4,463 bases of DNA from a virus (taxonomy: Duplodnaviria > Heunggongvirae > Uroviricota > Caudoviricetes): the IMG/VR virus record IMGVR_UViG_2684622772_000008; one strand, given 5' to 3'. The translations under genes and the position numbers were made by a program. This document shows, piece by piece, positions 1,187-4,463 of this stretch (positions within the stretch are counted from its first letter, which is position 1; each line of letters begins with the position of its first letter). Under the pieces are notes generated by a model, which was not told the DNA's origin, ran no database searches, and worked only from the letters and a program-made list of their open reading frames with translations.

Positions 1187-1414
1187 NNNNNNNNNNNNNN
1201 NNNNNNNNNNNNNNNNNNNNNNNNNNNNNNNNNNNNNNNNNNNNNNNNNNNNNNNNNNNNNNNNNNNNNNNNNNNNNNNNNNNNNNNNNNNNNNNNNNNN
1301 NNNNNNNNNNNNNNNNNNNNNNNNNNNNNNNNNNNNNNNNNNNNNNNNNNNNNNNNNNNNNNNNNNNNNNNNNNNNNNNNNNNNNNNNNNNNNNNNNNNN
1401 NNNNNNNNNNNNNN
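1187..1414. other. Assembly/scaffold gap (228 N)
   Basis: Uninterrupted run of n characters; true length and content unknown. Confidence 0.99.
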
Positions 1415-2414: not shown

Positions 2415-3101
2415 ATGACCCCAATAAACATATTTATGACAGTTGCTGATTTCAAACGGCCCAAATTGGAGCTCCCAAACGGGGCAAACAAACTACTACT
2501 GCACTCTTGCTGTGCTCCATGTTCCGGTGAGGTGATGGAGGCGCTTCAGGCCTCGGGAATCGACTACACCATCTTTTTCTACAACCCGAACATTCATCCT
2601 CAGAAAGAGTATTTAATTCGTAAGGATGAGAATATTCGCTTTGCTGAACAACACGGCGTGCCGTTTATTGATGCTGATTACGACACAGACAACTGGTTTG
2701 AACGAGCCAAAGGAATGGAATGGGAGCCCGAACGAGGGATCCGTTGCACCATGTGTTTTGACATGCGTTTTGAGCGGACAGCGCTGTACGCCGCTGAAAA
2801 TGGTTTCAGTGTGATCAGCAGTTCACTGGGCATTTCACGCTGGAAAAATATGCAGCAGGTTAACGACTGTGGGCGGCGAGCCGTCGCGCATTATCCGGGC
2901 ATGGTGTACTGGGATTATAACTGGCGCAAGCAGGGCGGCTCGTCCCGTATGATTGAAATCAGCAAGCGCGAAAAATTCTATCAGCAGGAATATTGTGGCT
3001 GTGTGTATTCTCTGCGCGATACCAATCTACACCGCAAATCTCAGGGACGCCCTCTTATCAAAATTGGTCAACTCCACTACGGTAAAGAAGAGAAGGAGTG
3101 A
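2415..3101 (+). CDS. queH: QueH-family (DUF208) epoxyqueuosine reductase-like protein (228 aa)
   Basis: The translation contains [32 protein letters not shown] and C-terminal YCGCVYS, the conserved Cys-containing blocks I recognise as the QueH/DUF208 signature. TGA 3099-3101. No clear Shine-Dalgarno before ATG 2415; in-frame ATG 2436 and TTG 2466 are alternative starts. Confidence 0.82.
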
Positions 3102-3122: not shown

Positions 3123-3152
3123 TTGATTTCATATTGGCGAGGTAAGTAGAAT
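3123..3152 (+). promoter_or_regulatory. Candidate sigma70 promoter of the hok-like mRNA
   Basis: -35 TTGATT at 3123-3128, 18-nt spacer, -10 TAGAAT at 3147-3152. Predicted start near 3159-3162 puts GUGCUUGAGG at the 5' end of the transcript, resembling the 5' end of plasmid R1 hok mRNA as I recall it. Confidence 0.45.
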
Positions 3153-3204
3153 GACTGCGGGTGCTTGAGGCTATCTGCTTCAGGCATGAACACCAAAAGG
3201 CAGA

Positions 3205-3281
3205 TAGAGAAAAGCCCCAGTTAACATTACGCGTCCGGCAAGACGCTTAACATTAATCTGAGGCCAATTTCATGCTTTGCA
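3205..3281 (-). ncRNA. sok: Sok-like antisense RNA (antitoxin of the type I TA locus); ends approximate
   Basis: On the minus strand, -35 TTGCCT (plus coords 3310-3315), 17-nt spacer, -10 TAACCT (plus coords 3287-3292). This has the same position and orientation as the sok promoter in hok/sok loci, overlapping the mok-equivalent start region. The transcript would run leftwards through the 5-bp hairpin GCGUC/GACGC at 3231-3246. The 3' end is not defined by a clean U-tract. Confidence 0.4.
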
Positions 3282-3328
3282 CATGTAGGTTAGCCTCTTA
3301 CATGCCGAAAGGCAAGGAGAAGCAGGCT

Positions 3329-3484
3329 ATGAAGCAGCAAAAGGCGATGTTAATCGCCCTGATCGTCATCTGTTTAACCGTCATAGTGACGGCACTGGTA
3401 ACGAGGAAAGACCTCTGTGAGGTACGAATCCGAACCGGCCAGACGGAGGTCGCTGTCTTCGTAGACTACGAATCCAGGAAGTAA
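3329..3484 (+). CDS. hok: Hok/Gef-family type I toxin (51 aa, single transmembrane helix)
   Basis: AAGGAG 3314-3319, ATG 3329, TAA 3482-3484. Protein MKQQKAMLIALIVICLTVIVTALVTRKDLCEVRIRTGQTEVAVFVDYESRK has a hydrophobic helix and the TRK.LCE.R..G..EVA tail typical of Hok proteins. It is very close to E. coli HokD/RelF as I recall it. Leader and trailer RNA elements are also hok-like. Confidence 0.9.
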   Translation: MKQQKAMLIALIVICLTVIVTALVTRKDLCEVRIRTGQTEVAVFVDYESRK

Positions 3485-3561
3485 GAGTGACCGGGCGGGG
3501 AGCTGATCCCATCCCCGCCCACCTCTGATGTGTCAGGCATCCTCAACGCACCCGCACTTAA

Positions 3562-3604
3562 CCCGCCCATCGCTGTGATCTCTCAGCGTTTCGGCGGGTT
3601 TTTT
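3562..3604 (+). terminator. Rho-independent terminator of the hok-like transcript
   Basis: Stem CCCGCC (3562-3567) pairs with GGCGGG (3593-3598), with inner pairing CGCUG (3571-3575) and CAGCG (3584-3588), followed directly by TTTTTT at 3599-3604. Confidence 0.7.
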
Positions 3605-3624
3605 GTTGTTTATTTCCGGTGAAT

Positions 3625-3652
3625 TTGATTCGCGCACCTTCGCAGATAGAAT
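3625..3652 (+). promoter_or_regulatory. Candidate sigma70 promoter upstream of the 95-aa ORF
   Basis: -35 TTGATT at 3625-3630, 16-nt spacer, -10 TAGAAT at 3647-3652. These are the same hexamers as the hok promoter, and the sequence after the -10 is similar (TAGAATcGACT vs TAGAATGACT). Confidence 0.4.
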
Positions 3653-3733: not shown

Positions 3734-4021
3734 ATGAAAATCGAAGAATTGCGTGAAATTTTTAGTGAAAATGGCCTCTATGCTGTGCGCGTTGAGAATG
3801 GAGCGATTGTCAGCCATTGCCGCATTAGATGTTTGCAATCTCAACAAAGGAAGAGCGGTGCTGTGTTATTTTATTTTTGTAATGGACTTCTGACGGACGG
3901 TTTTATTTTGCGTGAGGACGAATTTGTCACATCATTACGGGTTTTGAAAGAGATTGGTTTTAAGGCTGGTTTTCTGCTTTTGCTGAAGAATAAACTCATC
4001 TACAATCTTGAGCAGGATTGA
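3734..4021 (+). CDS. Hypothetical protein (95 aa), unassigned
   Basis: GGAAGGA at 3719-3725 is 8 nt before ATG 3734; TGA 4019-4021. Codon usage looks AT-rich with AGA/AGG Arg codons. No family recognised. Confidence 0.45.
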   Translation: MKIEELREIFSENGLYAVRVENGAIVSHCRIRCLQSQQRKSGAVLFYFCNGLLTDGFILREDEFVTSLRVLKEIGFKAGFLLLLKNKLIYNLEQD

Positions 4022-4059: not shown

Positions 4060-4413
4060 ATGGCACATATACAACTGGTCAAACAAACCTCTTCCGGATT
4101 ACTTCTCCCGGCGACGCCGGAGAGTTGCGATTTTCTGCATCAAATCAAAATAGGTGAGTGGATACACGCAGACTTTAAGCGTGTGTGTAACTACGCATTC
4201 CACAAGCGTTTTTTCAAACTCCTGCAACTGGGTTTCGATTACTGGACTCCGGTCGGTGGGGCGATCACGCCTCGCGAACGAAAACTGGTGTCCGGTTTCG
4301 TTGATTACCTGTGTGAATCAGTAGGCCGGGAACATACGCCAGCTCTGAGCGAAGCCGCAGAGCAATTGAGGTGTACTGGCAATAGCGGACACTACCATTT
4401 GTTCTTTTTTTAA
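4060..4413 (+). CDS. Hypothetical protein (117 aa as read); may be 3'-truncated or frameshifted at a T7 run
   Basis: GGAG at 4049-4052 is 7 nt before ATG 4060 (the ORF-track TTG at 4018 is less likely). The protein is MAHIQLVKQ...GHYHLFFF with TAA 4411-4413. The stop follows T7 at 4405-4411, and the adjacent frame is open from 4410 to the window end. Confidence 0.5.
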   Translation: MAHIQLVKQTSSGLLLPATPESCDFLHQIKIGEWIHADFKRVCNYAFHKRFFKLLQLGFDYWTPVGGAITPRERKLVSGFVDYLCESVGREHTPALSEAAEQLRCTGNSGHYHLFFF

Positions 4414-4463
4414 GCAGCCATCTGATGATATTTTTCCCTGAAGGCTGCCGGGGAGATATTCCC

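What the first reader, a model, noticed from the sequence alone, without database searches (positions are those of the whole stretch)
3260..3420. mok-equivalent frame is non-canonical: ATG followed directly by TAG
In canonical hok/sok, hok translation is coupled to an overlapping mok frame shifted by -1 relative to hok. Here that frame is open from 3289 to TGA 3418-3420 but has no ATG/GTG/TTG; its only upstream ATG (3283-3285) is followed immediately by TAG (3286-3288). Instead, ATG 3272 (GAGG at 3260-3263, 8 nt upstream) is in frame with hok and would give a 70-aa N-extended Hok. Either mok is inactivated, or coupling works through an in-frame extension or an ATG-TAG start-stop mini-ORF, or one base is missing between 3272 and 3290. 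The Sok -10 overlaps exactly this spot.
Basis: partly seen in the sequence, partly recalled or inferred. Interest (0 to 1): 0.5.

Follow-up and report, generated by a model that had tools for sequence, protein, structure and literature searches.

The report
Ordinary in-frame mok of prophage hok/sok
The odd-looking leader frame is the normal, already annotated "mokW/mokC-type" arrangement of a prophage hok/sok toxin-antitoxin locus. The regulatory leader ORF sits in the same frame as the toxin gene, so this is neither a defect nor a new mechanism.

Summary
The interpretation "non-canonical mok" holds only against plasmid R1.

- **Locus.** The window carries an intact hokW/hokD-type hok/sok locus in a lambdoid prophage (Rfam RF01794, 117 bits).
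- **Identity.** It is 100% identical to two complete E. coli chromosomes and 91% identical to phage 933W.
- **mok ORF.** ATG 3272, with GAGG 8 nt upstream, aligns with the R1 mok start. It opens the ORF that GenBank annotates as mokW (933W, VT2-Sakai) and mokC (K-12): a 19-codon extension sharing hok's stop.
- **Not a sequencing error.** This exact 70-aa ORF occurs on at least 1000 public contigs.
- **Base count.** R1 has 58 nt between the mok and hok ATGs. This locus has 57. The missing base lies in the upper hairpin.
- **Register across relatives.** The distance was 57 in 67, 58 in 4 and 56 in 4 of 75 phage loci. In a species-level scan it was 57 in 32, 58 in 35 and 56 in 6 of 76 loci.
- **Openness.** The ORF from the conserved ATG is almost always open up to the hok ATG. 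The other two frames usually contain stops.
- **ATG-TAG (3283-3288).** This is the 3' arm of the Sok-target hairpin (CAUG pairs with CAUG). It has no Shine-Dalgarno sequence (SD) and is not conserved.

Verdict: already known, low interest.

The parts
3123..3152 (+). hok mRNA promoter: TTGATT, 18-nt spacer, TAGAAT
   Evidence: Promoter scan, 9 of 12 matches. It lies 6 nt upstream of the start of the Rfam leader match at 3159.
3159..3606 (+). Full-length hok mRNA (5' end inferred from the Rfam match, 3' end from the terminal hairpin plus U run)
   Evidence: Minimum-free-energy (MFE) fold -191.2 kcal/mol, z = -7.96 against shuffles. Terminal hairpin 3560-3600 is followed by UUUU.
3159..3170 (+). 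tac element (5' end), paired with fbi in the full-length fold
   Evidence: Positions 3159-3170 pair with 3541-3553 in the MFE structure. This matches the R1 model described in PMC9841398.
3541..3553 (+). fbi element (fold-back inhibition)
   Evidence: Pairs with 3159-3170.
3209..3218 (+). ucb / anti-SD (AAAAGCCCC) that sequesters the mok SD in the full-length fold
   Evidence: Positions 3209-3218 pair with 3260-3271 in the full-length MFE fold. In the Rfam (open-form) structure the same block pairs with the 5' tac.
3210..3280 (-). Sok antisense RNA (about 71 nt), mapped by homology
   Evidence: The annotated sokW of 933W and VT2-Sakai and sokC of K-12 begin 9 nt into mok. That position is window 3280. 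sokW ends 62 nt upstream of the mok ATG, which is window 3210.
3287..3315 (-). Putative Sok promoter: -35 TTGCCT (3310-3315), 17-nt spacer, -10 TAACCT (3287-3292)
   Evidence: Read from the minus strand. It falls below the threshold of the consensus scan. Its position is fixed by the mapped Sok 5' end.
3260..3263 (+). mok Shine-Dalgarno GAGG
   Evidence: Invariant in the alignment with 933W, K-12 hokC and an R1-type plasmid locus. R1 GAGG mutations abolish Hok synthesis (PMC9841398).
3260..3297 (+). mok SD/dcb hairpin (the Sok target). GAGGC 3260-3264 pairs with GCCUC 3293-3297. AAUUUCAUG 3266-3274 pairs with CAUG 3282-3285 plus AGGUU 3287-3291. U3286 is bulged.
   Evidence: -13.6 kcal/mol, z = -2.5. 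All 19 variants tested fold the same way at -13 to -17 kcal/mol. It matches the Rfam consensus structure.
3272..3484 (+). mok ORF (mokW/mokC type): 19 leader codons in frame with hok, 70 aa
   Evidence: ORF list. The ATG column is invariant against R1-type, hokC and hokW loci. The homologous ORF is annotated as mokW and mokC and shares hok's stop. The exact protein is on at least 1000 contigs.
3283..3288 (+). ATG-TAG: a by-product of the hairpin 3' arm and the Sok promoter, not a coding element
   Evidence: CAUG 3282-3285 pairs with CAUG 3271-3274. No SD lies upstream. It is present in 7 of 18 unique phage hairpin variants and replaced by ACG, ATA, ATC or CTG in the rest.
3314..3319 (+). hok Shine-Dalgarno AAGGAG
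   Evidence: Sequence. Conserved in every relative examined. The block GGAG 3316-3318 through AUG 3329-3331 is predicted to pair with 3460-3475.
3329..3484 (+). hok toxin gene (51 aa; annotated hokD by PGAP, 98% identical to HokW)
   Evidence: Pfam PF01848 HOK_GEF, E = 9.8e-23. Annotated hokD in the identical E. coli chromosome. Alignment.

Best explanation
[quoted passage not shown] The ORF that starts at ATG 3272, behind GAGG 3260, is its mok gene.

In this locus, as in mokW of phages 933W and Sp5 and mokC of E. coli K-12, mok starts 57 nt before hok. It is therefore in frame with hok and ends at hok's stop, giving a 70-aa product. In R1 and hokB the distance is 58 nt, so mok runs in the -1 frame.

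Proposed working, inferred from the R1 model plus the folds here:
1. The full-length mRNA is locked by pairing of tac with fbi, and ucb covers the mok SD.
2. After 3' trimming, the mok SD/dcb hairpin (3260-3297) forms.
3. Sok RNA (3280 to 3210, minus strand) pairs with this region. It blocks mok initiation and triggers RNase III cleavage.
4. When Sok is lost, ribosomes start at 3272 and read through the hok ribosome-binding site. This melts the structure that hides the site, so hok can start at 3329.
5. Because the register is 57 nt, those ribosomes continue in the hok frame and also make a 70-aa N-extended Hok.

Only translation up to the hok start matters, so the register is free to drift between 56, 57 and 58 nt. 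The ATG-TAG at 3283-3288 is the complementary arm of the hairpin that holds the mok AUG (CAUG is self-complementary). It also lies between the Sok -10 hexamer and the Sok start. It is not a coding element.
For: **Shown here**
- Rfam RF01794 matches the leader at 117 bits with the consensus open-form structure.
- Hok matches PF01848.
- The mok SD and ATG columns are invariant against R1-type, hokC and hokW loci.
- Annotated mokW/hokW and mokC/hokC share a stop codon. mokB/hokB differ by 58 nt. R1 has its mok ATG at 116 and hok ATG at 174.
- The mok-to-hok distance is 57 in 67, 58 in 4 and 56 in 4 of 75 phage loci. It is 57 in 32, 58 in 35 and 56 in 6 of 76 genomic loci.
- Identical Hok proteins occur with different registers, for example L098/L113, L134/L138 and L146/L115.
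- The mok frame is open to the hok ATG in 23 of 23 and 54 of 56 unique leaders. Control frames are mostly closed.
- In the 56-nt class the mok stop overlaps the hok start as ATGA.
- The hairpin fold and its conservation are shown. The tac/fbi and ucb/SD pairing is shown.
- The exact 70-aa ORF is on at least 1000 contigs.

**From the literature**
- In R1, mutations of the mok start and stop codons upstream of the hok start abolish Hok. Stops after the hok start do not (PMC9841398).
- hokW-sokW of Sp5 is a working type I TA system that depends on RNase III and Hfq (PMC8621323).
Against: - No experiment on this locus or on hokW shows initiation at the mok ATG. The hokW paper treats the leader as a 5' UTR and reports no long isoform.
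- MFE folds of 3'-truncated RNAs did not reproduce the tac/ucb refolding.
- The Sok promoter hexamers are weak and were not picked up by the consensus scan.
- Leader conservation is confounded by RNA-structure and promoter constraints on the same bases.
- Sixteen unique leaders in other genera lack ATG, GTG or TTG at the mok position, so mok may be dispensable in some lineages.
Confidence: 0.85

Rival explanations
1. The leader ORF is not translated. hok starts only at ATG 3329, and Sok acts through RNA structure and RNase III alone. The 70-aa ORF would then be an accident of a 57-nt structured leader.
For: - The hokW-sokW study calls the region a 5' UTR and detects HokW-3FLAG without mentioning a larger form.
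- HokW expressed from its own ATG is toxic.
- A single 19-codon frame is open by chance about 40% of the time (my estimate, (61/64)^19).
Against: - The frame from the conserved ATG is open in 23 of 23 and 54 of 56 unique leaders. The other two frames are open in only 1-2 of 23 and 11-16 of 56.
- The open frame is kept across independent indels that change the register.
- The SD and ATG are invariant with R1, where mok start mutations abolish Hok.
Confidence: 0.08
2. The ATG-TAG at 3283-3288 is a functional start-stop mini-ORF that loads ribosomes for hok.
For: - It is present in 51 of 76 phage-type loci, through the three commonest hairpin variants.
- It is also present in K-12 hokC.
Against: - No Shine-Dalgarno sequence lies upstream (GCTTTGCAC).
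- The ATG is base-paired with the mok AUG arm.
- In 11 of 18 unique phage variants it is replaced by ACG-TAG, ATA-TAG, ATA-GAG, ATC-AGG or CTG-AAG. These follow changes in the 5' arm.
- R1 has CATCAGG at this position.
- The site lies upstream of the Sok 5' end, so Sok would not cover it.
Confidence: 0.02
3. A base was lost by sequencing error or recent mutation, so this copy has a broken mok and is a decaying locus.
For: - It has one base fewer than R1 between the mok ATG and the TAGCCTCTTAC block: 16 nt against 17 nt.
- The contig has an N run and ends in an IS600.
Against: - The exact 70-aa ORF is on at least 1000 contigs.
- The locus is 100% identical over 481 nt in two complete genomes.
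- The leader is identical in four IMG/VR contigs and in an E. coli and a Shigella chromosome.
- The 57-nt register is the majority state in this clade.
- All other regulatory elements are intact.
Confidence: 0.01

Closest known systems
mokW/hokW/sokW of Stx2 phage 933W and Sakai prophage 5 (VT2-Sakai)
   Same: - 91% DNA identity over the locus.
- Hok is 98% identical.
- It has the same 213-nt mok ORF sharing hok's stop, and the same Sok position.
- It has the same lambdoid-prophage setting.
- hokW-sokW is shown experimentally to be a type I TA system that aids lysis on induction.
   Different: - Leader codons 2-5 differ, LCTC here against LNTC, because the hairpin loop differs.
- Codon 11 is ATG here and GTG there.
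- The C-terminus is ...ESRK here against ...ESEK.
- The neighbouring genes differ: QueH lies upstream here, against L0139 in 933W.
mokC/hokC/sokC (gef) of E. coli K-12
   Same: - mok is annotated in frame with hok, 57 nt upstream, ending at the same stop.
- The same ATG-TAG lies in the hairpin arm.
- Hok is 78% identical.
   Different: - It is chromosomal rather than prophage-borne.
- Its dcb block reads GUGCCUC and so lacks the TAG.
- The K-12 copy is flanked by IS186.
mok/hok/sok of plasmid R1 (and mokB/hokB of K-12)
   Same: - The mok SD and ATG positions are the same, as are the SD/dcb hairpin, the hok SD block CAAGGAGAAG and the tac/ucb/fbi logic.
- There are 19 mok codons upstream of hok.
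   Different: - The distance is 58 nt, so mok is in the -1 frame and ends inside hok.
- R1-type Mok belongs to Pfam DUF5431. Neither the -1 frame here nor the 70-aa ORF matches that family.
- Hok is 41% identical to the R1-type Hok compared here.
- Its role is plasmid post-segregational killing.
[quoted passage not shown]
   Same: A type I toxin mRNA with two in-frame initiation codons, repressed by a single antisense RNA (review PMC4147584).
   Different: - It is an unrelated family.
- Both SprG1 forms are shown to be toxic. Nothing is known about the 70-aa Mok-Hok form.

Membership tests
[quoted passage not shown] | Small hydrophobic Hok/Gef toxin ORF | tested here: met
   PF01848 HOK_GEF, E = 9.8e-23, 79.9 bits against a cutoff of 22. 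NCBIfam Hok subfamily 55 bits, which is below its cutoff of 73. PGAP names the identical gene hokD.
[quoted passage not shown] | Structured hok mRNA leader (tac/ucb stem, Sok-target hairpin with the mok SD, hok SD hairpin) | tested here: met
   Rfam RF01794, 117 bits against a gathering score of 59, full model 1-157.
[quoted passage not shown] | Long-range 5'-3' pairing (tac/fbi) that locks the full-length mRNA | tested here: met
   Positions 3159-3170 pair with 3541-3553 in the MFE fold, z = -7.96. This is a prediction only.
[quoted passage not shown] | Antisense Sok RNA overlapping the mok translation start | tested here: inconclusive
   - The position is inferred from the annotated sokW and sokC.
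- TTGCCT, 17-nt spacer, TAACCT is readable on the minus strand.
- The consensus scan did not call it.
- There are no expression data for this copy.
[quoted passage not shown] | Toxicity of Hok and neutralisation by Sok | not testable with these tools
   Shown for the 98%-identical HokW and sokW in PMC8621323.
mokW/mokC-type (in-frame) mok | ORF starting at the conserved SD plus ATG, 57 nt upstream of hok, ending at hok's stop | tested here: met
   The ORF is 3272..3484. The same layout is annotated in 933W, VT2-Sakai and K-12. It occurs in 67 of 75 phage loci.
R1-type Mok (Pfam DUF5431, -1 frame) | mok 58 nt upstream of hok, in the -1 frame, with a product matching DUF5431 | tested here: not met
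   The distance is 57 nt. The -1 frame has no start codon. Its translation and the 70-aa ORF do not match PF17496, whereas an R1-type plasmid Mok does, at E = 3.9e-20.
Start-stop (ATG-stop) regulatory mini-ORF | SD-preceded, accessible and conserved start codon followed directly by a stop | tested here: not met
   There is no SD. The ATG is paired in the hairpin. It is absent from 11 of 18 unique phage variants and from R1.

The most novel reading that the evidence does not exclude
The register of mok relative to hok is unconstrained and flips repeatedly between 56, 57 and 58 nt, even between loci that encode identical Hok proteins. In the 57-nt class, which includes this locus (about 40% of loci in a species-level scan and about 90% of phage copies), every mok translation event yields a 70-aa N-extended Hok. 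That long form could insert into the membrane and be toxic on its own. Its extension is net positive, which fits an N-in topology. If so, in these loci Sok would directly repress a toxin isoform rather than acting only through coupling. I found no systematic description of this register drift. A 2026 preprint on Hok diversity states that Mok coding sequences were not analysed because they are hard to call.
Probability: 0.3. Interest if true: 0.4.

Novelty: already known. Interest (0 to 1): 0.15.

Why it matters
For the scan, this removes a false alarm. The locus is intact and its leader is the standard mokW/mokC layout, so it needs no re-sequencing.

A modest general point also emerges. The R1 picture of mok in the -1 frame is only one of three registers in natural use. 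What is conserved is an open frame from the mok start up to the hok start. That fits the R1 mutational result that only translation up to the hok ribosome-binding site is needed. Annotation pipelines and readers should not use the R1 frame as a test of whether a hok locus is intact.

Tried and rejected
- **Genome scan with a seven-member Hok alignment.** It failed because no stretch was conserved enough. I replaced it with a DNA-pattern scan. That pattern requires GAGGC, GCCTCTTA and CAAGGAGAAG, so conservation of those blocks in that set is circular.
- **RNAalifold on 17 hairpin variants.** It kept only the outer GAGGC/GCCUC stem, because the inner stems shift register. Folding each variant separately showed the inner stem in all of them.
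- **MFE folds of 3'-truncated mRNAs.** These did not reproduce the published tac/ucb refolding. I rely on the Rfam structure match instead.
- **Consensus promoter scan.** It did not call the Sok promoter.
- **Repeat search around the locus.** It found nothing.
- **Literature.** A search for orf69 with gef gave nothing relevant. The 933W genome paper is not held, so the in-frame mok rests on the GenBank features rather than on those papers' text.
- **DUF5431 test.** I tested whether the -1 frame is a relic R1-type Mok through Pfam DUF5431. The result was negative.

Full report
**Observation.** All coordinates in the finding are correct.
- GAGG lies at 3260-3263 and ATG at 3272.
- A second ATG at 3283 is followed directly by TAG at 3286.
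- The hok ATG is at 3329, 57 nt after 3272 and therefore in frame.
- The resulting ORF, 3272..3484, encodes 70 aa.
- The -1 frame is open from 3289 to TGA 3418-3420 and has no ATG, GTG or TTG.
- The region is a genuine hok/sok leader. Rfam RF01794 matches 3159-3334 at 117 bits over the whole model, and the toxin matches Pfam HOK_GEF.

**What the locus is.**
- The 481 nt around it are 100% identical to two complete E. coli chromosomes. There PGAP calls the toxin hokD, inside a lambdoid prophage early region (Cro/CI, YdaT, replication genes, QueH, hok, DUF1367, and others).
- It is 91% identical to phage 933W and VT2-Sakai.
- In those GenBank records three features are annotated: sokW, hokW, and mokW. 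mokW is a 213-nt CDS that begins 57 nt upstream of hokW and ends at the same stop codon.
- E. coli K-12 is annotated the same way for mokC/hokC and for the mokA pseudogene with hokA. mokB starts 58 nt before hokB and ends inside it.
- For R1, a mutational study places the mok start at 116-118 and the hok start at 174-176, a distance of 58 nt, with 19 mok codons upstream of hok (PMC9841398).
- In a four-way alignment the mok GAGGC and ATG columns are invariant between this window, 933W, K-12 hokC and an R1-type plasmid locus.

ATG 3272 is therefore the homologue of the R1 mok start. The "N-extended Hok" is what the databases already call MokW or MokC.

**Where the base is "missing".** The R1 leader is the one recovered with a Hok sequence that I recall as R1's; its GAGG-to-ATG spacing fits the R1 numbering. 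It has 17 nt between the mok ATG and the TAGCCTCTTAC block. This window has 16 nt. The rest of the leader down to the hok ATG has the same length in both. It is a lineage feature, not an error.
- The exact 70-aa protein occurs on at least 1000 public contigs, mostly Shigella and E. coli.
- The identical leader is in four IMG/VR contigs and in an E. coli and a Shigella flexneri chromosome.

**How common each register is.**
- *Phage set.* Of 75 phage-borne relatives with a recognisable mok start, the mok-to-hok distance is 57 nt in 67, 58 nt in 4 and 56 nt in 4.
  - The 57-nt class gives a 70-aa in-frame product.
  - The 58-nt class gives a 68-aa Mok in the R1-like frame.
  - The 56-nt class gives a 19-aa Mok whose TGA overlaps the hok ATG as ATGA.
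- *Genome set.* A pattern scan of one genome per species gave 76 loci with an intact hok and a canonical mok start. The distance was 58 in 35, 57 in 32 and 56 in 6, with three outliers.
- *Switches between close relatives.* The register changes between loci that encode identical or nearly identical Hok proteins. Examples are Atlantibacter L098 against L113, hokC in E. coli against E. ruysiae and E. whittamii, Kluyvera L146 against L115, and L145 against L110. It has therefore flipped several times.
- *Openness.* The frame from the conserved ATG is open as far as the hok ATG in 23 of 23 unique phage leaders and 54 of 56 unique genomic leaders. The other two frames contain stops in most of them.

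This is what the R1 data predict. Stops in mok upstream of the hok start abolish Hok, and stops after it do not.

**The ATG-TAG.**
- Positions 3260-3297 fold into the SD/dcb hairpin at -13.6 kcal/mol. GAGGC pairs with GCCUC, and AAUUUCAUG pairs with CAUG plus AGGUU, with U3286 bulged.
- The mok AUG is paired with CAU 3282-3284, and C3271 pairs with G3285. Because CAUG is self-complementary, the 3' arm necessarily reads ATG.
- All 19 hairpin variants tested fold alike, with the mok AUG in the stem.
- ATG-TAG appears only in 7 of the 18 unique phage variants, which account for 51 of 76 loci. Elsewhere the arm reads ACG-TAG, ATA-TAG, ATA-GAG, ATC-AGG or CTG-AAG, tracking the 5' arm.
- Nothing resembling a Shine-Dalgarno sequence precedes 3283.
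- The same bases lie between the inferred Sok -10 hexamer (TAACCT, 3287-3292, minus strand) and the Sok 5' end at 3280. That end is mapped from the annotated sokW and sokC starts.

**Integrity and mechanism.**
- A promoter-like site, TTGATT-18-TAGAAT, sits at 3123-3152.
- The full-length RNA 3159-3606 folds far better than shuffled sequences (z = -7.96). Its 5' end 3159-3170 pairs with 3541-3553 (tac/fbi). The AAAAGCCCC block covers the mok SD. A terminal hairpin is followed by a U run.
- The hok SD and AUG are predicted to pair with 3460-3475.
- The close homologue hokW-sokW has been shown to be a toxin with an RNA antitoxin that depends on RNase III and Hfq. Sok loss and Hok synthesis follow prophage induction (PMC8621323).
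- By analogy with R1, I infer that Sok blocks initiation at 3272. I also infer that mok-translating ribosomes open the hok start site and, in this register, read on to make a 70-aa form.
- Initiation at 3272 and the existence or toxicity of the long form have not been shown for this clade. The hokW paper treats the leader as a UTR.

**Verdict.** The feature is already annotated in public records and is common, so interest is low. What remains open is whether the long Mok-Hok isoform has activity of its own, and the unreported extent of register drift. A recent preprint says Mok ORFs were not analysed because they are hard to call.

Noticed in passing
L117, L139, L148, L155, L167, L178-L180, L191 (Serratia); L116, L173 (Dryocola); L099, L177 (Kluyvera); L107, L182 (Atlantibacter); also phage locus L043: Sixteen unique hok leaders have no ATG, GTG or TTG at the mok start position. 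They carry ACG or ATA there, or nothing recognisable, and the 3' hairpin arm changes to match (ACG pairs with CGT). In 9 of 16 the near-cognate codon opens a frame that reaches the hok ATG at 56-58 nt. In the others it does not. These may be near-cognate mok starts or mok-less loci.
   Followed up: partly
L116:636-2383 (Dryocola clanedunensis): Four hok/sok leaders sit in a head-to-tail array spaced exactly 561 bp apart. Each has a slightly different hairpin loop and lacks a canonical mok start.
   Followed up: no
L025, L026, L086, L087 (phage); L138, L156, L129, L159, L160, L168 (genomes): A third register exists, with a mok-to-hok distance of 56 nt. There mok is only 19 codons long and its TGA overlaps the hok ATG as ATGA, the classic termination-reinitiation layout.
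   Followed up: partly
window 4367-4463: The window stops matching the FDAARGOS_943 prophage at 4366, inside the DUF1367 gene. Its last roughly 100 nt match the end of an IS600 (IS3 family) element at about 94% identity. Together with the names attached to the 70-aa protein, this suggests a Shigella or E. coli contig that ends in an IS.
   Followed up: partly
window 1187-1414: A run of 228 N lies inside the ydaV/DnaC-like replication gene. The matching chromosome has 318 nt at that place, so the gap length is not faithful.
   Followed up: partly
window 2415-3101: A QueH-like (epoxyqueuosine reductase, DUF208) gene sits directly upstream of hok in the prophage. 933W carries different genes at this position.
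   Followed up: no
window 3625-3652: A second promoter-like site, TTGATT-16-TAGAAT, uses the same two hexamers as the hok promoter at 3123-3152. It lies just after the hok terminator and upstream of the 95-aa ORF 3734-4021.
   Followed up: no
L111 (Xanthomonas pisi, 431 nt), L106 (Collinsella MAG), L152 (Haemophilus MAG), L123 (Scatousia MAG): E. coli-type hokW leaders occur on very short contigs assigned to unrelated taxa. This is most likely contamination or mis-binning in those assemblies.
   Followed up: no
window 3416-3420: The TGA that closes the -1 frame here comes from the synonymous Cys codon TGT. 933W and the 58-nt loci, which read this frame as mok, use TGC and stay open almost to the end of hok.
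   Followed up: partly
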